The notes under the pieces are model-generated. The model was not told where the DNA came from. It worked only from the letters and a program-made list of their open reading frames with translations, and made no database searches. The translations under genes and the position numbers were made by a program. A stretch of DNA of 44,797 nt from a virus (lineage: Duplodnaviria > Heunggongvirae > Uroviricota > Caudoviricetes), in the IMG/VR virus record IMGVR_UViG_2568526230_000010, one strand, 5' to 3'. Shown piece after piece: positions 3,159-44,797 of this stretch (position 1 is its first letter; the number at the start of each line of letters is the position of its first letter).

Positions 3159-5621
3159 TCAATTCCCTGTTAATTGCAAAACTTGCTCTTCCAGCTTTTT
3201 AACCCTGCGTCTCATCATCGCAGATTCCAGAATCAGAGCCTCTTCATAACGGATACCGTAACATTCACCAGCCTCGACGGCTTCGCGTACCAGAACCTTT
3301 GTCTGTATAAGTGGGTAAACTCCTGCAGAATGCTCTTCTTCCGTCACATCCCTGTATTCTGCCGGGGTCTCATTCCACTTGTCATAACAGATAAATGCCA
3401 GTCGTGACACATCTATGCCTTCATTCTGAAATACACTGATAACATGCTGCGCAACTGCACCAAAGTGCCATCTTGCTCCGTCTTTACCTTTCACTTCGAT
3501 CCTGTCAAGGTACTGGTATGAAACCCATTCCACTCTTTCCCATGCGTCCAGTATTTTCTCATCAATAACCTCTGGAGCAGTCTTGAAACGCGCATCGGAC
3601 AGCACCGTAAACGCTGACTGGGTAAATCCCCCCGACCATGCACGACCAGCCAACCCAAGAGAATAAGTATTCGTTGTCGATGGTGTCATGGCTGAATCAG
3701 AAAACTGTATATATTCTGAATTTCCAGTAGATATTCGAATATTTCCATTTATTAGCGACATAGTGCCTTTAGTATTATCACTATTGAATAATTTCAATTG
3801 CGAACTTATACCGCCTCCCACAGCCAGAGATACATCGCCTTCAGCAAGCATTCTGAATTTATCTGCAGAAACAAGCGTCTGGTTAGCAAGGTTAAAATAT
3901 TTAACCCACCATTCAAAACGCCCTGACATAGTCCCAACGTACTGACCAAGCGCAGGGACGTGAACAACATTGCTATTTGTAGTGCCGTCTATACTGGAAA
4001 TACCAGTCACCGCTGATGCAGAACTCAGAATATTATTTCTGTCACCAGGATGTTTAATTTCAACAAAGTTCCTGATACACCCTTCCTCGAAGGTAACCAC
4101 GCCGGAAGAACTATACATGGGGAATATTGACGCATAATTACTGCGTGCAGCATCTAAGAAACGAATGGTTGTAGATGTCTGCAGATCTCCTGATTCATTT
4201 TTCCCATCACACCCAGTCATTAGAATATTACTGGCAATATTATTATTTCCCTGAACGGTGACGCCGTGCGCCTGCTTTGCGTCCGATTCAGAGTAATCAA
4301 CCAGCACATCCGAAATCAGGTTACCAGTCCCCTTGCCAACAACTACTGCGGCGTATTTTGGGTTGTTAGCCATTACACTGCTAATGATATTATTCGTTGG
4401 GGCAGTTTCCGTCTCAGTTCCATTGTAAACAACGTGCTGACACTCTTCACCAATAACATTGCTGACAATGTTATATTTTGCTGCTGTTTTAAGTTCCACT
4501 GCACCAAACTGAGGATAATTTCTGGCTATCACACCATCAATTAGCGTATTTTGCGATGAATCAAAAAGCACACAACCTGCTTTTTTATTATTTGCGAACC
4601 CTAAATACTCTCCTCTTATATCTCTAACAATGTAACCTGACGGAATACCATTATTCGGATAAGCGATCAAGCTAAATCCTGTTCCTCGCGTATTTGTAAA
4701 TCTGATATTTTTAACCGATACATCATGGCCACCTGAAAATGACACCTGGTGTCCCTGCACACTATCATCTGATTTATTTCCCATAATTGTTAGCGTACTA
4801 AGCATGCCACCATCGGGCATGTTAAAAACCAGATGATTACCATCTCTGTCATACTGTTTTATCGTTCCCCCACCTGTTCCGTACAAGCCACAACGTGAAA
4901 GAGAAACTAAAGATGTATTGAATACCCCTTCCGGAACAAAAACACTGCTAAACGAATGTAATGATTTTGTAAAAGCATCCTTGTTATCATTTAAGATTCC
5001 ATTTTGAGCTCCAAAATCCTTAATGCTGACACCATCACGCATCTTATCCTGGAACGTTCTGTATACCGCTCCAGAACCATACTGAATAAACCAACCAAAA
5101 CCACCAATAACTCCGGCGATTGCAGCATCGACATAATTACGCATTGAGCGATTATTTACAGCGTCCTGCTCAAGTGATGGATCGGCAAGGTTAGATATTC
5201 TGTTTTGCTTTGCATCGTAATATTTTGCAAGCAAAGATGGTTTCATCAATGCACGTCTGAACAACCCAAAACATCGCTGGATCAGCATCGTCAGGTAGTC
5301 AAATGCATCCTCATGAACTTCGGGGAAAAATTTTCCCTGATTGCGAAGATCAGTCTCCTGCACCACATCAAGCACACGCTCTATCGTGATTCGCCAGCCA
5401 GCAGCAAGCGGCGACGGAAGAACCACTGCACCGCCACTATAAGTTCCCGCCCCTGTTACCGTATAACCAGCATCCAGCACTAGTTTTGTAACGTTACCGT
5501 TAAGGTCAGACACCTGAACAACCAGGTCGGATTTTTTGAAAATACGGAAGGTATACGGAAATGATGTCGTAACGCCGTTACCTGTGTATTCGTTGTGGTC
5601 AACTTCGGTTGAGACCGTCAT
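3159..5621 (-). CDS. Tailspike with beta-helix and C-terminal intramolecular chaperone (S74-type autoproteolytic) domain
   Basis: 820 aa; conserved podovirus particle-binding N-terminus; long Gly/Asn/Ser/Thr-rich repetitive middle; C-terminal 150 aa ending in a coiled coil resembles endosialidase-type chaperone domains. Confidence 0.8.
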   Translation of the reverse strand: MTVSTEVDHNEYTGNGVTTSFPYTFRIFKKSDLVVQVSDLNGNVTKLVLDAGYTVTGAGTYSGGAVVLPSPLAAGWRITIERVLDVVQETDLRNQGKFFPEVHEDAFDYLTMLIQRCFGLFRRALMKPSLLAKYYDAKQNRISNLADPSLEQDAVNNRSMRNYVDAAIAGVIGGFGWFIQYGSGAVYRTFQDKMRDGVSIKDFGAQNGILNDNKDAFTKSLHSFSSVFVPEGVFNTSLVSLSRCGLYGTGGGTIKQYDRDGNHLVFNMPDGGMLSTLTIMGNKSDDSVQGHQVSFSGGHDVSVKNIRFTNTRGTGFSLIAYPNNGIPSGYIVRDIRGEYLGFANNKKAGCVLFDSSQNTLIDGVIARNYPQFGAVELKTAAKYNIVSNVIGEECQHVVYNGTETETAPTNNIISSVMANNPKYAAVVVGKGTGNLISDVLVDYSESDAKQAHGVTVQGNNNIASNILMTGCDGKNESGDLQTSTTIRFLDAARSNYASIFPMYSSSGVVTFEEGCIRNFVEIKHPGDRNNILSSASAVTGISSIDGTTNSNVVHVPALGQYVGTMSGRFEWWVKYFNLANQTLVSADKFRMLAEGDVSLAVGGGISSQLKLFNSDNTKGTMSLINGNIRISTGNSEYIQFSDSAMTPSTTNTYSLGLAGRAWSGGFTQSAFTVLSDARFKTAPEVIDEKILDAWERVEWVSYQYLDRIEVKGKDGARWHFGAVAQHVISVFQNEGIDVSRLAFICYDKWNETPAEYRDVTEEEHSAGVYPLIQTKVLVREAVEAGECYGIRYEEALILESAMMRRRVKKLEEQVLQLTGN

Positions 5622-5725
5622 GTTAAATCTCCAGATAGTCGCAGCACCCGTTGCGCCGCATATCTGGTTATTCTATTACCTGAAAAACCATATATGGATA
5701 AAAAGACTGTAAATACGAATAGATA

Positions 5726-5740
5726 TTACCTTTCAGGTAA
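5726..5740. promoter_or_regulatory. Operator-like palindrome TTACCTTTCAGGTAA (perfect 6-3-6)
   Basis: Perfect inverted repeat in the divergent region between the tailspike and the accessory island; one of 13 family members. Confidence 0.5.
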
Positions 5741-5777
5741 TTTGCAAAACGTGCTGGATAGCAAACAAATTATTTGC

Positions 5778-5797
5778 TACTGTATAAATATACAGTT
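5778..5797. promoter_or_regulatory. LexA (SOS) box TACTGTATAAATATACAGTT
   Basis: CTGT-N8-ACAG with an AT-rich spacer, matching the enterobacterial SOS-box consensus at 19 of 20 positions; 21 nt upstream of the ATG at 5818. Confidence 0.7.
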
Positions 5798-5817
5798 ATT
5801 GCATGGAGAAGATTAAG

Positions 5818-6075
5818 ATGCAGCAGTATCACTATCCACTGGAAGACGGATTTACCGAAAGGATTCACACGCCGGGAGGCGTCAGGTCACTGGTGGAGGG
5901 ATCGCACTTGATGAAATTACTCCGGGATCTCGATAAGGATGGATTTAATGTCGATGGCCCACTTGCCGAACTGACTGCACTGATTAACTACGTCACCAGC
6001 TCACAGATGTCTATGCAGGATCTGCAAACACATCTCGACTATTGTGCCGAACAATTACGAAAACAAACCAGATAA
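5818..6075 (+). CDS. Small protein homologous to the C-terminal domain of the downstream antirepressor-like protein
   Basis: 85 aa; RBS GGAG 9 nt upstream; IHTPGGVRSLVEGSHLMKLL…MQDLQTHLDY aligns with IHSPSGVLGLTENSLLMNLL…LRDIQTHAEY in the 6889..7608 product. Confidence 0.6.
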   Translation: MQQYHYPLEDGFTERIHTPGGVRSLVEGSHLMKLLRDLDKDGFNVDGPLAELTALINYVTSSQMSMQDLQTHLDYCAEQLRKQTR

Positions 6076-6106
6076 GGTTTGAAATTACCAAATGGAGTGC
6101 TTATAT

Positions 6107-6121
6107 TTACCTTTGCGGTAA
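6107..6121. promoter_or_regulatory. Operator-like palindrome TTACCTTTGCGGTAA inside a hairpin
   Basis: Family member with one mismatch, lying in the loop of the inverted repeat GGAGTGC (6094-6100) / GCACTCC (6131-6137) just after the small-gene stop. Confidence 0.4.
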
Positions 6122-6147
6122 ATTTACATCGCACTCCTCTTGTGCCA

Positions 6148-6240
6148 TAGTAATCGGGCACTGGCAAAATCCAGTGCCGGGATTGGCGTCCCGGATTACT
6201 AGTAGGCGCATACCACGCCAGACGTGGTTTTTTTATGCGT
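6148..6240 (+). ncRNA. Candidate structured small RNA: tRNA-like three-way junction plus intrinsic terminator
   Basis: 8-bp closing stem TAGTAATC/GATTACTA encloses hairpins GGCACTGG-CAAAAT-CCAGTGCC and GGGA-TTGGCG-TCCC, followed by terminator ACCACG-CCAGA-CGTGGT plus T7; no credible ORF on either strand. Confidence 0.4.
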
Positions 6241-6389
6241 ATAGCACAGTCATATCCGAATTATGGTGGGCTGGGCAGGGGCACCGAAAGGTGCGCCGGT
6301 ACCTACTAGGCCGGTACGCCAACCTTGTCCAGTTCACCACCAGCAATTGGCGTTGCGGTGGTGGGTAACTTACTAGTAGAGGTATCGCT

Positions 6390-6896
6390 ATGCCAGGCCA
6401 AAAAATCTCAAACGACGATCTGTATTGGTTAATTTCTAATTCTCCACTCCTTCTTATGCTAAGGCAAGAAAGTGCACCACTGGTCAGTGAATTGATTAGC
6501 TGTAGAAATAGAATGTGGGATGAAGGGGCAGATTTAGATACCAATTTGTTTGATCATCTTATGCAACTAGCAGTCGATAACAAGGCAAAACTACGCTCTG
6601 AATACAACGCTTATCCAGAAATAGCAAAATACCTTAACGCTGAAATACTTGGTGGACCAGGTCAACCAGACCTAAAAACAAAAGATGGTTACCCTGTTGA
6701 GGTGAAGGTAGATACTTTTTCTCCTTCAGCATTAAAACAATTATTAAGGTATATGGATGCTTCTGGCGCAGATTTTGGTTTTGCTTGTGCAAAAACTCTT
6801 TCTGTAAAACTCCCTGAAAACATAAAGTTCATCCAGTTAGATTATAAAGATAATTGCTATTTCGTCGTGAAAGATGGAGGCAATGAAAATGCGTAA
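6390..6896 (+). CDS. Hypothetical protein, AT-rich accessory gene coupled to the antirepressor-like gene
   Basis: 168 aa; RBS GAGGT 5 nt upstream; lower GC than flanking phage genes; its end overlaps the start of the next gene. Confidence 0.55.
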   Translation: MPGQKISNDDLYWLISNSPLLLMLRQESAPLVSELISCRNRMWDEGADLDTNLFDHLMQLAVDNKAKLRSEYNAYPEIAKYLNAEILGGPGQPDLKTKDGYPVEVKVDTFSPSALKQLLRYMDASGADFGFACAKTLSVKLPENIKFIQLDYKDNCYFVVKDGGNENA

Positions 6897-7608
6897 TATA
6901 GCTATTGATAAGTTGCCGATAACAACTCATTGCAACATCCCTGTAATGACTACAGAAATGCTTGCTGATTTGTATGACACAGAACCCAAACTGATTCGTC
7001 AAAACTATCAACGAAATGCAGATCGATTCATTGAGGGAAAACATTGTTTCAAGCTGATAGGCGAAGAATTACGAGCATTTAAGAACGAGTCCTCTCAAAG
7101 AGGTTTGCTTAATATTGCACCAAAAGTAAGTCATCTTTTCTTATGGACCGCTCGCGGTGCAGCACGACATGCGAAAATTCTTGAGACTGAAAAAGCGTGG
7201 GAGGTCTTCGAAAAACTGGAAGATTGCTACTTCGACAGAAAACCCGCAAATGTCAGTGGAGATGTTCGTCTCTCAGGTGGAGCTGATTTATCAAAGGCCA
7301 CTCAGGTAATTGAAAAATTCATGCCCGCCATTATGGAGGCGATCAAGCTGGAAGACAAAAAAGAATACAGTGCCCCACTGAAGCCCGGCTACCGCAGCCT
7401 GATTCATTCTCCGTCTGGTGTTCTCGGCCTGACGGAGAACTCACTGCTGATGAATCTGCTGAACCAGTTACAGGAAGACGGGCACGACGTATCGGGCGCG
7501 GCGGCGGAGCTGACCACCATGTTCTGCTACATCGTCGGTGTGAGCAAATGCCTGCGTGATATCCAGACCCACGCGGAGTACATCAACGACAAGGCAGGGT
7601 TCTTCTGA
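6889..7608 (+). CDS. Antirepressor-like protein with N-terminal ORF6N-type DNA-binding domain
   Basis: N-terminus fits the ORF6N pattern (VMTTEMLADLYDTEPKLIRQNYQRNADRFIEGKHCFKLIGEEL); C-terminal domain is a paralog of the 5818..6075 product. Start placed at the ATG 8 nt after GGAGG; the ORF track starts at 6874. Confidence 0.65.
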   Translation: MRNIAIDKLPITTHCNIPVMTTEMLADLYDTEPKLIRQNYQRNADRFIEGKHCFKLIGEELRAFKNESSQRGLLNIAPKVSHLFLWTARGAARHAKILETEKAWEVFEKLEDCYFDRKPANVSGDVRLSGGADLSKATQVIEKFMPAIMEAIKLEDKKEYSAPLKPGYRSLIHSPSGVLGLTENSLLMNLLNQLQEDGHDVSGAAAELTTMFCYIVGVSKCLRDIQTHAEYINDKAGFF

Positions 7609-7680: not shown

Positions 7681-7695
7681 TTACCTCAAGGGTAA
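7681..7695. promoter_or_regulatory. Operator-like palindrome TTACCTCAAGGGTAA
   Basis: Family member with one mismatch, between the antirepressor-like stop and the toxin module; followed by hairpin ACGGATT/AATCCGT. Confidence 0.4.
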
Positions 7696-7755: not shown

Positions 7756-7935
7756 ATGCGAAACGAAAAATTGCAGATGCGTAGAGCGCAAGCTGCCGCA
7801 AGACGTTCTTTCAATGGAAGCGTAGAGTACGTAAAAGTTACTATGACAAAAGATCACGCAAGTCGCGTATCCCGCGCTTTCTTTGATTCTCGTAACAATA
7901 AGGAAAATTATGAGTTCGTCTGCGTCGCAGAATGA
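7756..7935 (+). CDS. Small basic protein, candidate antitoxin or regulator partner of the YafO-like toxin
   Basis: 59 aa, below the ORF-track cutoff; RBS GAGGT 6 nt upstream; Arg/Lys-rich; its 3' end overlaps the toxin start by 26 nt. No Phd/YefM/YafN-like signature recognised. Confidence 0.35.
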   Translation: MRNEKLQMRRAQAAARRSFNGSVEYVKVTMTKDHASRVSRAFFDSRNNKENYEFVCVAE

Positions 7936-8455
7936 TAAAAATCAAATTGTCAGATATAAGGGTCGAGTGTTGCATACGCAAAATTTCTCGGCCCTTTGTG
8001 CATCTGATCTTGAGCTGAAGAAAGTATCTGATGCCTTTACCCAGTATTGGAAAACGGGATACCATCCATCTCTTGGTAAAGATGCTGCATTTGCTCGTCC
8101 GACAGAAATGCTTAAACTAAATGTCAGGCATACTCATGTCGATAACCAAGACTATATTCCAGAAGATAGTGATAAAAAACACACTGGTAAAAAATCATCT
8201 TGGGATGCATGGAAAAATATAGCGTCTGTACAAGTAAAATGCATACCAACAAGTGATTGCTTTTTAGTTTATTCGGTAAATCACAATCGTGATGCGCTGG
8301 TTATGTTTTTTGTTGACGCAGATGCTCACAACATAACTGAGCAAGAAGAGTTTAAAGAGGAAGCAATCACTATCAGTTATCAATTCTTTGAGAAAACAAA
8401 AACAGAACCAATGCCTTTAGAAGAAGATCTTTTTTCTGATAAATGGAAGGAATAG
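7910..8455 (+). CDS. YafO-family toxin homolog (ribosome-dependent mRNA interferase family) with C-terminal extension
   Basis: Aligns by eye with E. coli YafO as recalled: FTQYWKTGYHPSLGKDAAFARP vs FISYKRDGVLPDIFGRDALYD, LNVRHTHV vs ERVAHIHL, CFLVYSV…ALVMFFV vs AHLVYCQ…AWLLIAI. Start at the ATG with RBS AAGGA; AT-rich; followed by a terminator. Confidence 0.65.
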   Translation: MSSSASQNDKNQIVRYKGRVLHTQNFSALCASDLELKKVSDAFTQYWKTGYHPSLGKDAAFARPTEMLKLNVRHTHVDNQDYIPEDSDKKHTGKKSSWDAWKNIASVQVKCIPTSDCFLVYSVNHNRDALVMFFVDADAHNITEQEEFKEEAITISYQFFEKTKTEPMPLEEDLFSDKWKE

Positions 8456-8475
8456 CCCGCAGCGCGGGCTTTTTT
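8455..8475 (+). terminator. Rho-independent terminator
   Basis: GCCCGC-AGC-GCGGGC followed by T6, at the stop of the toxin gene. Confidence 0.7.
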
Positions 8476-8547
8476 GTGGACGAAACACAAGTCAGTGCTA
8501 CACTCATTGACGCCACATTGAGGTGGCTTATAGATGGAAATTTCACA

Positions 8548-8709
8548 ATGAAAAAAGCATTTGCTGCACTGTTCGTTTTGTTGTCTCTGGTAGCTTCAAC
8601 TCAGGCCTTTGCCGGTCGTTGTCAGCACGACAGCGACACTGCTGCTGACGGCTCCCGCTGCGGTGGGCGTTCTGCGGATTCCCGCCCGGGCGGCGGTGGC
8701 ATTCGTTAA
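8548..8709 (+). CDS. Small exported peptide (signal peptide plus about 31-aa Cys/Gly/Arg-rich mature part)
   Basis: MKKAFAALFVLLSLVASTQAFA signal peptide; possible promoter TTGACG-N16-TATAGA upstream; GC-rich, so real coding is uncertain. Confidence 0.35.
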   Translation: MKKAFAALFVLLSLVASTQAFAGRCQHDSDTAADGSRCGGRSADSRPGGGGIR

Positions 8710-25137: not shown

Positions 25138-25152
25138 TTACCCTTCAGGTAA
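25138..25152. promoter_or_regulatory. Operator-like palindrome TTACCCTTCAGGTAA next to a TTGACA -35 element
   Basis: Family member with one mismatch; TTGACA at 25116-25121 lies 16 bp upstream, in the divergent region between the portal operon and the tRNA. Confidence 0.4.
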
Positions 25153-25474: not shown

Positions 25475-25551
25475 GTGGCATTAGCTCAGTTGGACAGAGC
25501 AACCGCCTTCTAAGCGGTTGGTCGCAGGTTCGAATCCTGCATGCCACGCCA
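25475..25551 (+). tRNA. tRNA-Arg (anticodon UCU), phage-encoded
   Basis: Cloverleaf folded by hand: acceptor GTGGCAT/ATGCCAC, D-stem GCTC/GAGC, anticodon stem ACCGC/GCGGT with loop CTTCTAA, T-arm GCAGG-TTCGAAT-CCTGC, discriminator G and encoded CCA. Acceptor stem differs from host argU as recalled. Confidence 0.85.
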
Positions 25552-35096: not shown

Positions 35097-35159
35097 TCAC
35101 CCATAAGGTAACAAAAATCAAGGATAGTTACCCATGAGGTGCATTTACCTGTTGGGTAA
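35097..35159. promoter_or_regulatory. Switch-region operator cluster (three TTACCT-N3-AGGTAA-like sites)
   Basis: TCACCCATAAGGTAA (35097-35111), TTACCCATGAGGTGC (35128-35142) and TTACCTGTTGGGTAA (35145-35159) between the divergent Cro-like and repressor-like starts. Confidence 0.5.
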
Positions 35160-35214: not shown

Positions 35215-35799
35215 ATGAAAAGTATCCAGGACGTCCGCAGGCAAAATCTCAACGACTTGATCGACCGTGAATTCAATGGTGTTCAGACGCGGATGGCAGA
35301 AAAACTTGGAACTCAGGCAAATCTGGTAAACCGCTGGGCTCTTGGCAAGAAGGTTATCGGCGACCAGGTTGCGCGAAAAATTGAAGCTGCCGCCAATAAA
35401 CCACGTAACTGGCTTGATATCGATCGCTCGCTTTCTCAGGAAGGTTTTCAGCCTGTCGGCCCAAGCGACATTGGTCAGCTGGCGGCTCACAACCTGGAAC
35501 GCTGGATGAGCGAAAGCCGCGACCTTTCAACTCAGGGAAAACTTCACCGCGCATCCGGCGTCGCCCAGGTGACAATCAGCCGCCTGTTAAACAATGAGGT
35601 CAGTGTTTCCATTTCCACCCTGGAGAATGTTGCATCAGCATTCGGGCGTCACGGCTATGAATTACTGATTCACCCGCACGACCCTGCGACCATCAACTAT
35701 GACCGCTCGCGCTACGCATTGTTACCCGAAACCGAGAAAGCAAAGATCGAAAGTTACATTGAATTTGTCATCAACCAGAACGAAAAAAACAAACAATAA
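35215..35799 (+). CDS. Prophage repressor candidate with two HTH (XRE-type) motifs and no S24 peptidase domain
   Basis: 194 aa; HTH-like segments near residues 20-45 and 105-135; no Ala-Gly cleavage site or Ser/Lys peptidase domain seen; own terminator downstream. Confidence 0.6.
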   Translation: MKSIQDVRRQNLNDLIDREFNGVQTRMAEKLGTQANLVNRWALGKKVIGDQVARKIEAAANKPRNWLDIDRSLSQEGFQPVGPSDIGQLAAHNLERWMSESRDLSTQGKLHRASGVAQVTISRLLNNEVSVSISTLENVASAFGRHGYELLIHPHDPATINYDRSRYALLPETEKAKIESYIEFVINQNEKNKQ

Positions 35800-41087: not shown

Positions 41088-41214
41088 AATCATTCCCACT
41101 CAATTATTTACGGACACCATAACTAATTGAGTGATAACATTTTTCCAAAGATGAATTTTTCTCGTACCGTTTTATATACCGTCACCGGAAATCAGTACCA
41201 TGAAAAATGCCATG

Positions 41215-41697
41215 CTATCTGGTCAGTGTGTCGTACTGTTTTTCGCAGACTCTTCCGGCTTCGGCTGCCCGGTCAGCATACTCTGCCAGTTGTCTGTTTC
41301 TCTCGAGAGATTTGCTGAGCACGTCGGCAAGCAAAACTCCGGTGTCTGCGGCTGACGTCCCAGCGCCGACAATGGCGTTATACTGCCTGAGCTGCTCACG
41401 GATGGCAAAGAGTTGTTGCTGCAACCTGCCAGCGCGAGCGGCAGCATCAAGAGCATCGCTGCGCGCCTGCTCGATCCTCTGCTGCGCTTCACGTTCATTG
41501 GTCGCTTTCTCCTGTTCGTAGTGCTGACGAACTTTTTCTTCTTCGGCTTTGCGGTCTTCTTTCGCCTGCGCATACCCGGCGTCGTACTGACGACTGCCGT
41601 GTGCATTCCAGGCTACAACTCCTGATATGACCAGAACAGCAAGCATCGCCATGATAACCAACTGTTTCCAGTATGCTTTTACGAATGCCCAGATCAT
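41215..41697 (-). CDS. Rz-like spanin (copy 2)
   Basis: Protein identical to the 1289..1771 product. Confidence 0.75.
41223..41456 (-). CDS. Embedded Rz1-like lipoprotein spanin (copy 2)
   Basis: Identical to the 1297..1530 ORF. Confidence 0.55.
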   Translation of the reverse strand: MLLMLPLALAGCSNNSLPSVSSSGSITPLSALGRQPQTPEFCLPTCSANLSRETDNWQSMLTGQPKPEESAKNSTTH

Positions 41698-42323
41698 ACC
41701 GCTAGCGCCTTACTGGCAGTGATGTACCGAGCGCGCCGGTCGTCGATGCCGTTCCTGCCACCATTGATAATCAGAGTTACACGTGCAATATCGCCGGTAT
41801 ACTTCATGCAGCCTTTGCTGGAGAAAAACCACGCCGCGCTACGAGCTGCATATTCGTCCTGCGCCAGCAGTTCAGGATTCTCCAGCAGGTCCACTTTCAG
41901 GCCGTTTCCGCAGTCACGATAGTTATTCAAACCGGTAATCTGGATAAGTCCGCGCCCACGGTAATTCCATCCATCGCCTGGGGCATTGTTACCCATGCGT
42001 TTGCTGTACACCAGATTTGCGATCGCGCGCTGGCGCTCGAGTTGCAATGGTGGTTCACCAGCACGGCGACCCAGTGCGTTGGCCTGTCCCTGAGTGAGAC
42101 GTCCTGCCCGAACAAAGTTAGCCAGTCCTGTGACACTGTAGTTGAAATTCTCCTGCAACCTGGTGAAGCCACCAGACTCATGCCCGACTTGAGCAATAAA
42201 CATTGCCTGATCTTCTGCTTTGCTGATACCAAACTCTTTCATTGCAGAAGTTATATGCGAGAACCAGCGTGCGGCCAGCGCCTCGCTAATACCAGCAGCT
42301 CGCTGGAATTGTTTAATCTCCAT
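41694..42323 (-). CDS. GH19 endolysin (copy 2)
   Basis: Protein identical to the 1768..2397 product. Confidence 0.8.
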
Positions 42324-42621
42324 GTTTAGACCTCGTTATCTTGAAAATCTGAACGACGTTACCGCGAGTTTTAAGAACCGCAGCAAGCATGACAGCGTTG
42401 ATAATGACCTCAGATAAATCCACAGCCATTGGCGTGCGTAACCAGATTGCATAGGCGACTCGAACAGGAATACTGGCCGCAGCAACAATCAGGAAATAAG
42501 CAAGCCATCCTCCCCACCTTCGATGTTGAGAGCCGTTACGCCGGAATGTGACAACGCGAATTGCTATGCCAGTGCAAATAACTGCATTGGTGATAAGCAA
42601 AAAAAACTCATGCGTTACCAT
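42313..42621 (-). CDS. Holin-like membrane protein (copy 2)
   Basis: Identical to 2387..2695. Confidence 0.5.
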
Positions 42622-43012
42622 CGTCTTTTCTCCCCGGAATTAACTCGCGTGGATTATCGGAACGGTGATAGAGCCATATACCAATACGCACAGCGACAAT
42701 TGCTGACACAAATGCGCCTGCAGAGAAAACAATCCCTTTTTCAAAAGAGTCCTGCGTGATGGTAGGGATCAGGCTGGCTATGCCGATAAGAATTGATGCT
42801 GCTGGTTTGTAAAAGAGAAGGCCGCAAAGAAAGCTGAGCATCGACAGGAGCACCCGGCGACGGATGGGGTACTCTACTGCAGAGGTAACAAAAATTACCG
42901 CCCCAGCCAAAGCCCCTAAAGCAACCTCCGGAGGGACACCTGCAATAACCGCAGCAAGAGAACTAACACTAAGCCACTGATTTGAAGTTTCATTGGTTAG
43001 TTGGAATGACAT
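42608..43012 (-). CDS. Holin/antiholin-like membrane protein (copy 2)
   Basis: Identical to 2682..3086. Confidence 0.5.
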   Translation of the reverse strand: MSFQLTNETSNQWLSVSSLAAVIAGVPPEVALGALAGAVIFVTSAVEYPIRRRVLLSMLSFLCGLLFYKPAASILIGIASLIPTITQDSFEKGIVFSAGAFVSAIVAVRIGIWLYHRSDNPRELIPGRKDDGNA

Positions 43013-43084
43013 AACGAAACCCGTTTATTTGCAAACACCCTGCTTCAGGAAAAGTATACCGCGCAACAACACACCATTTACGGT

Positions 43085-44797
43085 TCAATTCCCTGTTAAT
43101 TGCAAAACTTGCTCTTCCAGCTTTTTAACCCTGCGTCTCATCATCGCAGATTCCAGAATCAGAGCCTCTTCATAACGGATACCGTAACATTCACCAGCCT
43201 CGACGGCTTCGCGTACCAGAACCTTTGTCTGTATAAGTGGGTAAACTCCTGCAGAATGCTCTTCTTCCGTCACATCCCTGTATTCTGCCGGGGTCTCATT
43301 CCACTTGTCATAACAGATAAATGCCAGTCGTGACACATCTATGCCTTCATTCTGAAATACACTGATAACATGCTGCGCAACTGCACCAAAGTGCCATCTT
43401 GCTCCGTCTTTACCTTTCACTTCGATCCTGTCAAGGTACTGGTATGAAACCCATTCCACTCTTTCCCATGCGTCCAGTATTTTCTCATCAATAACCTCTG
43501 GAGCAGTCTTGAAACGCGCATCGGACAGCACCGTAAACGCTGACTGGGTAAATCCCCCCGACCATGCACGACCAGCCAACCCAAGAGAATAAGTATTCGT
43601 TGTCGATGGTGTCATGGCTGAATCAGAAAACTGTATATATTCTGAATTTCCAGTAGATATTCGAATATTTCCATTTATTAGCGACATAGTGCCTTTAGTA
43701 TTATCACTATTGAATAATTTCAATTGCGAACTTATACCGCCTCCCACAGCCAGAGATACATCGCCTTCAGCAAGCATTCTGAATTTATCTGCAGAAACAA
43801 GCGTCTGGTTAGCAAGGTTAAAATATTTAACCCACCATTCAAAACGCCCTGACATAGTCCCAACGTACTGACCAAGCGCAGGGACGTGAACAACATTGCT
43901 ATTTGTAGTGCCGTCTATACTGGAAATACCAGTCACCGCTGATGCAGAACTCAGAATATTATTTCTGTCACCAGGATGTTTAATTTCAACAAAGTTCCTG
44001 ATACACCCTTCCTCGAAGGTAACCACGCCGGAAGAACTATACATGGGGAATATTGACGCATAATTACTGCGTGCAGCATCTAAGAAACGAATGGTTGTAG
44101 ATGTCTGCAGATCTCCTGATTCATTTTTCCCATCACACCCAGTCATTAGAATATTACTGGCAATATTATTATTTCCCTGAACGGTGACGCCGTGCGCCTG
44201 CTTTGCGTCCGATTCAGAGTAATCAACCAGCACATCCGAAATCAGGTTACCAGTCCCCTTGCCAACAACTACTGCGGCGTATTTTGGGTTGTTAGCCATT
44301 ACACTGCTAATGATATTATTCGTTGGGGCAGTTTCCGTCTCAGTTCCATTGTAAACAACGTGCTGACACTCTTCACCAATAACATTGCTGACAATGTTAT
44401 ATTTTGCTGCTGTTTTAAGTTCCACTGCACCAAACTGAGGATAATTTCTGGCTATCACACCATCAATTAGCGTATTTTGCGATGAATCAAAAAGCACACA
44501 ACCTGCTTTTTTATTATTTGCGAACCCTAAATACTCTCCTCTTATATCTCTAACAATGTAACCTGACGGAATACCATTATTCGGATAAGCGATCAAGCTA
44601 AATCCTGTTCCTCGCGTATTTGTAAATCTGATATTTTTAACCGATACATCATGGCCACCTGAAAATGACACCTGGTGTCCCTGCACACTATCATCTGATT
44701 TATTTCCCATAATTGTTAGCGTACTAAGCATGCCACCATCGGGCATGTTAAAAACCAGATGATTACCATCTCTGTCATACTGTTTTATCGTTCCCCC
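43085..44797 (-). CDS. Tailspike (copy 2), partial: N-terminal part lies beyond the window end
   Basis: Identical to the C-terminal 570 codons of 3159..5621; the reading frame stays open to the last base of the window. Confidence 0.75.
   Translation of the reverse strand, partial: GGTIKQYDRDGNHLVFNMPDGGMLSTLTIMGNKSDDSVQGHQVSFSGGHDVSVKNIRFTNTRGTGFSLIAYPNNGIPSGYIVRDIRGEYLGFANNKKAGCVLFDSSQNTLIDGVIARNYPQFGAVELKTAAKYNIVSNVIGEECQHVVYNGTETETAPTNNIISSVMANNPKYAAVVVGKGTGNLISDVLVDYSESDAKQAHGVTVQGNNNIASNILMTGCDGKNESGDLQTSTTIRFLDAARSNYASIFPMYSSSGVVTFEEGCIRNFVEIKHPGDRNNILSSASAVTGISSIDGTTNSNVVHVPALGQYVGTMSGRFEWWVKYFNLANQTLVSADKFRMLAEGDVSLAVGGGISSQLKLFNSDNTKGTMSLINGNIRISTGNSEYIQFSDSAMTPSTTNTYSLGLAGRAWSGGFTQSAFTVLSDARFKTAPEVIDEKILDAWERVEWVSYQYLDRIEVKGKDGARWHFGAVAQHVISVFQNEGIDVSRLAFICYDKWNETPAEYRDVTEEEHSAGVYPLIQTKVLVREAVEAGECYGIRYEEALILESAMMRRRVKKLEEQVLQLTGN

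What the first reader, a model, noticed from the sequence alone, without database searches (positions are those of the whole stretch)
5778..5797. Near-consensus LexA box immediately upstream of the first island gene
TACTGTATAAATATACAGTT matches CTGT-N8-ACAG with an AT-rich spacer and sits 21 nt before the ATG at 5818. In phages with non-cleavable repressors (186 Tum, Gifsy-type antirepressors) this arrangement drives SOS induction. A perfect operator-like palindrome (5726-5740) lies 38 bp further upstream, so the promoter may take dual input from LexA and the phage repressor.
Basis: partly seen in the sequence, partly recalled or inferred. Interest (0 to 1): 0.7.

Follow-up and report, generated by a model that had tools for sequence, protein, structure and literature searches.

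The report
SOS-controlled phage antirepressor gene promoter
The site is a real, conserved LexA (DNA-damage) operator in front of a small antirepressor gene of an E. coli epsilon15/phiV10-type prophage, and it matches a switch already worked out experimentally in the related Salmonella phage SPC32H, so it is correct but ordinary.

Summary
TACTGTATAAATATACAGTT lies at 5778-5797, matches the E. coli LexA consensus at 18 of 20 positions, and is unique in the window (0 of 100 shuffles give such a match). It ends 20 nt before the ATG at 5818.

The 85-aa product is 88% identical to Ant of Salmonella phage SPC32H (PDB 5D50 chain E, E = 4e-47). The window also encodes the partner repressor Rep (35215-35799; PDB 5D50 chain A, E = 4e-42). 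Rep has HTH domains only and no S24 self-cleavage domain.

The box is conserved in phiV10, epsilon15, SPC32H, Tyrion and BUCT554, and in 119 of 120 IMG/VR relatives, with variation confined to the spacer and position 20. SPC32N, the published constitutive-Ant mutant, differs from SPC32H by ACAG>AAAG inside the box.

So this is the known LexA -| Ant -| Rep induction switch (Kim & Ryu 2013; Kim et al. 2016) in an E. coli Uetakevirus prophage present in about 10% of complete E. coli genomes.

The upstream palindrome is one of at least 10 perfect copies of the phage operator motif TTACC-N5-GGTAA, and epsilon15's record annotates it as a repressor site. It lies about 57 bp upstream of the predicted start, between two divergent promoters, so dual LexA/Rep control remains plausible but unproven.

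Side observation: a second, longer antirepressor downstream, behind isrK and C4 RNAs, carries an Ant-like C-terminal domain.

The parts
5778..5797 (.). LexA (SOS) box TACTGTATAAATATACAGTT
   Evidence: It matches the consensus at 18 of 20 positions and is unique in the window, with 0 of 100 shuffles giving a match. CTGT and ACAG are conserved in 6 of 9 related phages and in 119 of 120 IMG/VR relatives, with variation confined to the spacer. SPC32N carries ACAG>AAAG here.
5755..5783 (+). Predicted ant promoter: -35 TGGATA (5755-5760), 17-bp spacer, -10 TACTGT (5778-5783, the left arm of the LexA box). The inferred start is near 5790.
   Evidence: This is the only rightward -35/-10 pair found at the same alignment columns in 8 of the 9 phages; Kp_ST11phi3.2 did not list it among its top 4. 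CTGGAnA and the TA of TACTGT are invariant. The start site was not mapped, so the promoter is an inference. The generic promoter scan did not call it.
5805..5809 (+). Shine-Dalgarno GGAGA, 8 nt before the ATG
   Evidence: Read directly; GGAG is invariant in 9 phages.
5818..6075 (+). ant: an 85-aa small antirepressor, orthologue of SPC32H Ant
   Evidence: It hits PDB 5d50_E 'Anti-repressor protein' at E = 4.1e-47, with 73/83 identical residues. The SPC32H and SPC32N records annotate the orthologue as ant. It matches phrog_450. RefSeq calls it a hypothetical protein.
5725..5741 (.). Phage operator motif ATTACCtttcaGGTAAT, the presumed Rep site
   Evidence: It is one of 10 perfect TTACC-N5-GGTAA copies in the window; the looser pattern gives 19 matches against 1.4 expected. 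It is invariant in 9 phages. The equivalent site in the epsilon15 record is annotated protein_bind 'repressor / lysogeny'.
5670..5698 (-). Conserved leftward promoter-like element for the tail-fibre gene: -35 TCCATA (5698>5693), 17-bp spacer, -10 TAGAAT (5675>5670)
   Evidence: It is among the top 3 leftward promoter-like candidates, at the same alignment columns, in all 9 phages, and is the top-ranked one in 8. It is a prediction only.
3159..5621 (-). Tail-fibre gene, divergent from ant
35215..35799 (+). rep: a 194-aa immunity repressor, orthologue of SPC32H Rep, with two HTH regions and no peptidase S24 domain
   Evidence: It hits PDB 5d50_A 'Repressor' at E = 4e-42, about 42% identical. Pfam finds HTH_3 and related HTH families only. 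Operator copies lie at 35097-35111 and 35145-35159 in the intergenic region it shares with a cro-like gene.
6106..6122 (.). Second operator copy TTTACCtttgcGGTAAA, abutting the -35 of the isrK promoter candidate (TTTACA 6123-6128 / TGcCATAGT 6146-6151)
   Evidence: TTACC and GGTAAAT are invariant in 5 phages.
6158..6344 (+). isrK-like sRNA (6158-6234, with terminator 6212-6235) and C4 antisense RNA (6259-6344). These form the leader of a P1 immI-like second antirepressor module directly downstream of ant.
   Evidence: Rfam gives isrK 68.1 bits and C4 76.7 bits, both above their gathering scores. The same pair is found in phiV10, Tyrion and two Klebsiella phages. No rightward terminator was found between the ant stop and 6212.
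6889..7608 (+). Long antirepressor: an ORF6N N-terminal domain plus an Ant-like C-terminal domain
   Evidence: Pfam ORF6N at E = 1e-18. Its C-terminus is 42% identical to the small Ant, E = 4e-16. It matches phrog_1760 'anti-repressor' and phrog_450.

Best explanation
The window holds an E. coli epsilon15/phiV10-type (Uetakevirus) prophage. The site at 5778-5797 is the host LexA operator of the promoter of ant (5818-6075). In an undamaged lysogen, LexA sits on the box, which overlaps the predicted -10 and transcription start, and keeps ant silent. The phage repressor Rep (35215-35799) holds the lytic promoters off through its TTACC-N5-GGTAA operators. Rep has no self-cleavage domain, so RecA* cannot inactivate it directly. 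After DNA damage LexA cleaves itself and ant is transcribed. Ant then binds Rep and strips it from DNA, and the prophage is induced. What is shown here: the box, its conservation, the orthology of Ant and Rep to the solved SPC32H proteins, and the absence of an S24 domain. What is taken from the literature on SPC32H: LexA binding, constitutive Ant in the box mutant SPC32N, and the Ant-Rep complex. What is inferred: the promoter hexamers and start site, that this Ant acts on this 42%-identical Rep, and that the upstream operator lets Rep also influence ant and/or the divergent tail-fibre promoter.
For: The box is 18/20 to consensus and unique, with 0 of 100 shuffles matching and a chance expectation of 1.4e-4. 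Ant hits 5d50_E at E = 4e-47 with 88% identity. Rep hits 5d50_A at E = 4e-42 and has only HTH domains. No S24 domain was found in ten other early-region proteins. SPC32H and SPC32N annotate the orthologue as ant, and the two differ by ACAG>AAAG in the box. CTGT/ACAG is conserved in phiV10, epsilon15, SPC32H, Tyrion and BUCT554, and in 119 of 120 IMG/VR contigs selected on the flanks only; the 18 box variants differ only in the spacer and at position 20. The conserved -35 TGGATA / -10 TACTGT pair places the box over the -10 and start. A review states that in S. enterica prophages, including the Kim & Ryu 2013 case, LexA self-cleavage leads to synthesis of an antirepressor that inhibits the repressor (PMC7380047). 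The Rep tetramer and its Ant tetramer disassembly are summarised in PMC9638917. A closely related E. coli phage, ZX5, is induced by mitomycin C (PMC9782041).
Against: There is no experimental datum for this E. coli prophage. The generic promoter scan did not call a promoter at the box, and an alternative -35 (TTGCAA, 5742-5747) scores slightly higher in this one sequence. Rep is only about 42% identical to SPC32H Rep while Ant is 88% identical, so the cognate pairing is inferred. The Klebsiella relatives have ATGT instead of CTGT in the left arm. The primary papers (J Virol 2013, PNAS 2016) could not be read here, so details such as the mapped promoter rest on my memory of the abstracts and on citing papers.
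Confidence: 0.9

Rival explanations
1. Dual-input promoter. Rep bound at 5725-5741 co-represses (or co-activates) Pant together with LexA, so that ant needs both SOS and falling Rep occupancy, or so that Ant feeds back positively on its own promoter.
For: The palindrome is a bona fide copy of the operator motif that also occurs in the rep/cro intergenic region. It is invariant across 9 phages at a fixed distance from the LexA box and is annotated as a repressor site in epsilon15. Its right end abuts a TTGCAA -35-like hexamer, the same geometry as the operator at the isrK promoter (GGTAAA|TTTACA).
Against: With the conserved promoter candidate, the operator centre is near -57 and outside the core promoter. 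The TTGCAA hexamer is not conserved in the Klebsiella relatives. The site is equally well placed (about -70) for the conserved leftward tail-fibre promoter. No binding or expression data are available.
Confidence: 0.35
2. The operator serves only the divergent tail-fibre/lysis promoter, and Pant is controlled by LexA alone.
For: In epsilon15 a terminator follows gp18 and the tail-fibre gene lies beyond the oppositely oriented ant, so it needs its own promoter. A leftward T(T/C)CATA-17-TAGAAT element is conserved in all 9 phages, with an extra invariant TTACC half-site next to its -10. Other late-region operators sit 70-120 nt upstream of structural genes.
Against: The operator does not overlap that core promoter either. 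No data distinguish the two directions.
Confidence: 0.4
3. The LexA-like palindrome is a chance or vestigial match with no regulatory role in this E. coli prophage.
For: There is no direct experiment on this phage. The promoter scan did not flag the site.
Against: The chance expectation is 1.4e-4. The arms are strictly conserved while the spacer varies in 18 variants. There is functional genetic evidence in the orthologous SPC32H/SPC32N pair (plus the literature).
Confidence: 0.03
4. Ant of this prophage acts mainly in trans on repressors of other prophages (Gifsy-style crosstalk), or is redundant with the long antirepressor, rather than being the cognate inducer of this prophage's Rep.
For: Ant is 88% conserved but Rep only 42% conserved relative to SPC32H. 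A second Ant-domain protein is encoded 0.8 kb downstream. Trans-acting antirepressors are documented in Salmonella (PMC3121763, listed).
Against: Ant and Rep orthologues co-occur in all the Uetakevirus genomes examined, and the N-terminal HTH recognition segment NLVNRW of Rep is conserved. This is not tested further.
Confidence: 0.1

Closest known systems
SPC32H Ant/Rep antirepression switch (Salmonella Uetakevirus; Kim & Ryu, J Virol 2013; Kim et al., PNAS 2016; PDB 5D50, 5D4Z)
   Same: The Ant protein is orthologous (88% identity). The Rep is orthologous, with two HTH regions and no S24 domain. The gene occupies the same position, divergent from the tail-fibre/tailspike gene. A LexA box lies at the same distance from the ATG, and the same upstream operator palindrome is present.
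   Different: The host is E. coli. Rep is only about 42% identical. The spacer of the box differs (ATAAATAT against ATGTTTAT). ant is followed by an extra isrK/C4/long-antirepressor/YafO block that SPC32H and epsilon15 lack.
Coliphage 186 Tum and Salmonella Gifsy/Fels-2 antirepressors (GfoA, GfhA, Tum)
   Same: The logic is the same: a non-cleavable immunity repressor, an antirepressor gene repressed by host LexA, and SOS induction through protein-protein inactivation (PMC7380047; PMC3121763).
   Different: The protein families are unrelated. Ant here gives no significant Pfam match (only a sub-threshold DUF724 hit, 17.6 bits against a 38.4-bit cutoff), so no domain links it to those proteins, although none of their sequences was compared directly. 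They also belong to different phage types (myo/siphoviruses) and differ in how they bind the repressor.
P22 immI region (ant, arc, mnt, sar)
   Same: An antirepressor module is embedded among late genes next to the tailspike gene of a podovirus.
   Different: P22 ant is controlled by Mnt, Arc and sar RNA rather than LexA, and P22 C2 is itself RecA-cleavable. No Arc/Mnt homologues were seen here.
P1/P7 immI (c4 - icd - ant) and the Gifsy-1 isrK-orf45-anrP locus
   Same: This applies to the module directly downstream of ant. It has C4 antisense RNA and isrK hits above the Rfam thresholds, followed by an ORF and an antirepressor, with a primary-repressor-type operator at the promoter.
   Different: It is not the element in the finding. 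Here it sits behind a LexA-controlled small Ant, and its antirepressor has an Ant-like C-terminal domain.

Membership tests
Gammaproteobacterial LexA (SOS) box | A 16-bp CTGT-N8-ACAG palindrome with an AT-rich spacer, within the 20-bp consensus TACTGTATATATATACAGTA | tested here: met
   18/20 match with all 8 core bases present; unique in the window with 0 of 100 shuffles matching.
Gammaproteobacterial LexA (SOS) box | The box overlaps or lies just downstream of a promoter for the regulated gene | tested here: inconclusive
   A conserved TGGATA-17-TACTGT candidate puts the box over the -10 and start. The generic scan found no promoter and the start site is unmapped.
Gammaproteobacterial LexA (SOS) box | The arms are conserved in orthologous loci while the spacer drifts | tested here: met
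   9-phage alignment. 119 of 120 IMG/VR contigs are intact, and the 18 variants differ only in the spacer and at position 20.
Gammaproteobacterial LexA (SOS) box | Binding by LexA and derepression on DNA damage | not testable with these tools
   This is reported for the SPC32H orthologue (Kim & Ryu 2013; the primary paper was not readable here). The SPC32N box mutation is visible.
SPC32H-type Ant/Rep antirepression system | A small (~86 aa) Ant protein homologous to PDB 5D50 chain E | tested here: met
   E = 4.1e-47, 73/83 identical.
SPC32H-type Ant/Rep antirepression system | A Rep homologue (PDB 5D50 chain A) lacking a RecA-dependent autocleavage (S24) domain | tested here: met
   E = 4e-42 over the full length; Pfam finds HTH families only.
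SPC32H-type Ant/Rep antirepression system | ant lies divergent from the tailspike/tail-fibre gene, with a LexA box in the intergenic region | tested here: met
SPC32H-type Ant/Rep antirepression system | Ant physically binds and inactivates the cognate Rep | not testable with these tools
   Inferred from orthology. Rep is only about 42% identical.
186 Tum / Gifsy GfoA-type LexA-controlled antirepressors | Sequence homology of the antirepressor to Tum/GfoA | not tested
   Ant was never compared with a Tum or GfoA sequence. The Pfam scan gave only a sub-threshold DUF724 hit, so there is no shared domain assignment, and PHROGs places Ant in phrog_450. The statement that the SPC32H family is structurally distinct comes from memory of the Kim & Ryu 2013 abstract. 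The system works like Tum, but membership is not claimed.
P1 immI-type antisense-RNA-gated antirepressor operon (downstream module only) | A C4 antisense RNA gene upstream of an ORF plus antirepressor | tested here: met
   Rfam C4 scores 76.7 bits against a gathering score of 45, and isrK 68.1 against 50. The ORF6N antirepressor lies downstream.

The most novel reading that the evidence does not exclude
In the E. coli, Enterobacter and Klebsiella branch of these phages, the LexA-controlled ant may be the first stage of a two-stage antirepressor cascade. No rightward terminator was found between ant and isrK, so SOS-induced transcripts would read into the isrK/C4 leader. Inactivation of Rep by small Ant would also free the Rep-type operator that abuts the isrK/C4 promoter. 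Either route would release a second, longer antirepressor whose C-terminal domain is itself an Ant paralogue. In addition, the operator at 5725-5741 would make Pant itself responsive to Rep, giving positive feedback. None of this has been described for SPC32H or epsilon15, which lack the second module.
Probability: 0.25. Interest if true: 0.45.

Novelty: already known. Interest (0 to 1): 0.2.

Why it matters
The result explains how a prophage family found in about 10% of complete E. coli genomes (529 of 5426) is induced by DNA damage despite having a repressor that cannot self-cleave. It also allows an annotation fix: the 85-aa 'hypothetical protein' (WP_001188252.1 and its relatives in phiV10, ZX5 and others) is the LexA-controlled antirepressor Ant. 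The E. coli ZX5 study looked only at the larger Bro-N 'anti-repressor' and never mentions LexA. Beyond that, the mechanism is textbook for this phage genus. Only the tandem arrangement with a second Ant-domain antirepressor, and the possible Rep input, remain open questions of moderate interest.

Tried and rejected
1. I tried to read the primary papers and none is held: J Virol 2013 (DOI and PMC3807360), PNAS 2016 (DOI and PMC4983836) and the epsilon15 genome paper (PMC2698709). I relied on citing papers, the GenBank annotations and the PDB.

2. The generic sigma-70 scan found no promoter at the box. My own position weight matrix scan gave two candidates. I rejected TTGCAA/CAAATT as the main promoter because it is not conserved in relatives.

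3. The other two CTGT-N8-ACAG hits (21125, 25667) were rejected as chance. Their spacers are G+C-rich, neither is within 6 mismatches of the consensus, and 3 of 100 shuffles reach 3 hits.

4. Pfam has no family for Ant, only a sub-threshold DUF724 hit. PHROGs lists its family (phrog_450) as unknown function.

5. The genome-contig scan for the box plus Shine-Dalgarno pattern found only 3 species representatives (Citrobacter braakii, C. werkmanii, Pseudocitrobacter faecalis), because that collection holds one genome per species.

6. The isrK paper contains no mention of LexA, so there is no published link between the two modules.

7. I did not use the large protein searches or structure prediction. 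The PDB match made them unnecessary.

Full report
**Observation.** Reading the window directly shows TACTGTATAAATATACAGTT at 5778-5797. A Shine-Dalgarno GGAGA follows at 5805-5809 and an ATG at 5818. The box differs from the 20-nt E. coli LexA consensus TACTGTATATATATACAGTA at two non-core positions. It is the only site in the 44.8-kb window within three mismatches, and none of 100 dinucleotide-preserving shuffles produced one. The analytic expectation for <=2 mismatches is 1.4e-4. The loose CTGT-N8-ACAG pattern has two further hits (21125, 25667), but these have G+C-rich spacers and are compatible with chance.

**What the locus is.**
- The window is an E. coli chromosome segment (yfgH, yfgI) carrying a prophage of the epsilon15/phiV10 group, genus Uetakevirus.
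- The gene behind the box (5818-6075, 85 aa) is annotated 'hypothetical protein' in RefSeq.
- It matches the 'Anti-repressor protein' chain of PDB 5D50 at E = 4e-47, with 73/83 identical residues. The orthologous gene in the Salmonella phages SPC32H and SPC32N is annotated ant.
- The window also encodes the partner: ORF 35215-35799 (194 aa) matches the 'Repressor' chain of 5D50 over its whole length (E = 4e-42; about 42% identity).
- Pfam finds only helix-turn-helix families in this Rep and no peptidase S24 domain. None of ten neighbouring early-region proteins has one either.

**Conservation.**
- An alignment of the tail-fibre/ant intergenic region from nine phages was made: window, phiV10, epsilon15, SPC32H, Enterobacter Tyrion and BUCT554, and three Klebsiella phages. 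Only a few islands are conserved in an otherwise 75%-identical region. They are the operator palindrome, a CTGGAnA block, the LexA box arms and the ribosome-binding site.
- The Klebsiella phages have ATGT in place of CTGT in the left arm.
- SPC32N differs from SPC32H by ACAG>AAAG inside the box. From my memory of the abstract of Kim & Ryu 2013, this is the single-nucleotide LexA-site mutation that makes Ant constitutive and the phage unable to maintain lysogeny.
- Among IMG/VR viral contigs selected only on the flanking sequences (GCTGGATAG-N37-TTGCATGGAGA), 119 of 120 keep CTGT-N8-ACAG. The 18 box variants differ only in the central spacer and at position 20.
- The ant region is present in 529 of 5426 complete E. 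coli genomes.

**Mechanism.** This is the switch described for SPC32H. Rep is not cleaved during SOS. Instead, LexA represses ant, LexA self-cleavage releases Ant, and Ant inactivates Rep.
- The review PMC7380047 states this for S. enterica prophages, citing Kim & Ryu 2013.
- PMC9638917 summarises the structural work: Rep is a tetramer on DNA, and tetrameric Ant binds two Rep dimers and breaks the tetramer.
- A close E. coli relative, vB_EcoP_ZX5, is inducible by mitomycin C.
- For the promoter, my matrix scan of the nine aligned sequences finds one rightward candidate at the same alignment columns in eight of the nine, Kp_ST11phi3.2 being the exception: -35 TGGATA (5755-5760), a 17-bp spacer and -10 TACTGT (5778-5783).
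- That candidate puts the LexA box over the -10 and the start near 5790, in line with the published statement that the LexA site overlaps the ant promoter. This is a prediction. The generic scan missed it, and in this one sequence TTGCAA (5742-5747)/CAAATT scores slightly higher but is not conserved.

**The palindrome and the dual-input idea.**
- TTACC-N5-GGTAA occurs 10 times perfectly and 6 times with one mismatch in the window. With the flanking A/T included, there are 19 matches at <=2 mismatches against 1.4 expected.
- Most copies fall between ORFs. They lie in the rep/cro-like intergenic region (35097, 35145), downstream of rep (35857, 35919), in the replication region (32796, 32858, 34760), near the terminase (28265, 28283), near int (40940), and at 5726, 6107 and 7681.
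- The epsilon15 RefSeq record annotates the same motif at equivalent places, including upstream of gp19 (= ant), as 'repressor / lysogeny' binding sites.
- The presumed recognition segment of the Rep N-terminal HTH (NLVNRW) is conserved between this Rep and SPC32H Rep. That fits a shared operator despite 42% overall identity.
- So the palindrome is almost certainly an operator of the phage repressor. Whether it regulates ant is open.
- With the conserved promoter candidate its centre lies near -57. It also lies about -70 from a strongly conserved leftward promoter-like element (T(T/C)CATA-17-TAGAAT, 5698-5670) for the tail-fibre gene.
- I therefore rate 'dual LexA + Rep input on Pant' as plausible (about 0.35) and not shown.

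**Downstream context.**
- Unlike epsilon15 and SPC32H, where ant is followed at once by a terminator and the late genes, this prophage has an extra block after ant.
- The block holds an isrK-like sRNA (6158-6234), a C4 antisense RNA (6259-6344), a 168-aa ORF, an ORF6N antirepressor (6889-7608) and a YafO-family toxin ORF.
- The isrK/C4 pair recurs in phiV10, Tyrion and two Klebsiella phages.
- An operator copy (6106-6122) abuts the -35 of a promoter candidate whose predicted start coincides with the Rfam isrK start.
- The long antirepressor's C-terminal ~80 residues are homologous to the small Ant (42% identity, E = 4e-16; phrog_450). The same holds in Tyrion and a Klebsiella phage, and phiV10 keeps a truncated version.
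- No rightward terminator was found between the ant stop and the isrK terminator, so SOS-driven transcripts may enter this module. This is the basis of the 'novel case', a two-stage antirepressor cascade. It is speculative.

**Comparison and verdict.**
- The element meets every testable defining feature of the SPC32H-type Ant/Rep system and of a LexA box. Binding and induction could not be tested here.
- It works like 186 Tum and the Gifsy antirepressors. Ant shares no Pfam domain assignment with them, and none of their sequences was compared directly, so membership is not claimed.
- The finding is a correct rediscovery of a known switch in an un-annotated E. coli orthologue, so interest is low (0.2). 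Its practical value is annotation transfer. The ZX5 paper on a near-identical E. coli phage studied only the Bro-N antirepressor and never mentions LexA.

Noticed in passing
window 6874-7608 (RefSeq start 6889): The ORF6N 'long' antirepressor has a C-terminal domain (about aa 161-242) homologous to the small LexA-controlled Ant (42% identity, E = 4e-16). The phage therefore encodes two Ant-domain proteins 0.8 kb apart under different controls. The same is seen in Enterobacter phage Tyrion and Klebsiella phage ST11-OXA245phi3.2, and phiV10's Bro-N protein keeps only the first ~30 residues of the domain.
   Followed up: partly
window 6158-6234 and 6259-6344: isrK-like sRNA and C4 antisense RNA (Rfam, above gathering scores) lie directly downstream of ant and form a P1 immI-like or Gifsy-1 isrK-like leader for the long antirepressor. 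The sequence ACTAGTAG recurs in isrK (about 6199-6206) and at the ribosome-binding site of the 6390 ORF (about 6373-6380), and is complementary to CTACTAG in C4 (about 6304-6310). This suggests target-mimic or antisense pairing.
   Followed up: partly
window 5726, 6107, 7681, 25138, 28265, 28283, 32796, 32858, 34760, 35097, 35145, 35857, 35919, 40940: A genome-wide network of TTACC-N5-GGTAA operator-like palindromes (10 perfect copies), often in pairs 18, 48 or 62 bp apart. It matches the 'repressor' sites annotated in epsilon15 and is reminiscent of the scattered C1 operators of P1.
   Followed up: partly
window 1162-41087 and 41088-44797: The prophage (39,926 bp) is followed by a second, base-for-base identical copy that runs to the window end. 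This is either a tandem double lysogen or an assembly duplication. The att core AATCATTCCCACTCAAT lies at both junctions and is the reverse complement of the attP reported for phiV10 and ZX5. Ecol_AZ162 has only one copy of the ant region.
   Followed up: partly
window 7883-8455 (and small ORF 8443-8709): A YafO-family toxin ORF (Pfam YafO_toxin; RefSeq 'type II toxin-antitoxin system YafO family toxin') lies in the moron block, with an operator-like TTACCtcaagGGTAA at 7681-7695 upstream. No obvious YafN-type antitoxin was identified.
   Followed up: no
window 5670-5698, minus strand: A leftward promoter-like element T(T/C)CATA-17-TAGAAT, with an adjacent invariant TTACC half-site, is conserved in all nine phages. 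It is probably the tail-fibre gene's own promoter.
   Followed up: partly
window 6064-6081, minus strand: A terminator-like hairpin CAAACCTTATCTGGTTTG plus TTTTCG reads leftward at the 3' end of ant. It has no T-run on the + strand. It looks like the counterpart of the late-operon terminator that abuts ant in epsilon15, retained although a 2.6-kb block has been inserted beyond it.
   Followed up: no
window 25475-25548: A tRNA gene (Rfam tRNA, 73 bits) lies inside the prophage near the head-gene region, close to an operator copy at 25138.
   Followed up: no
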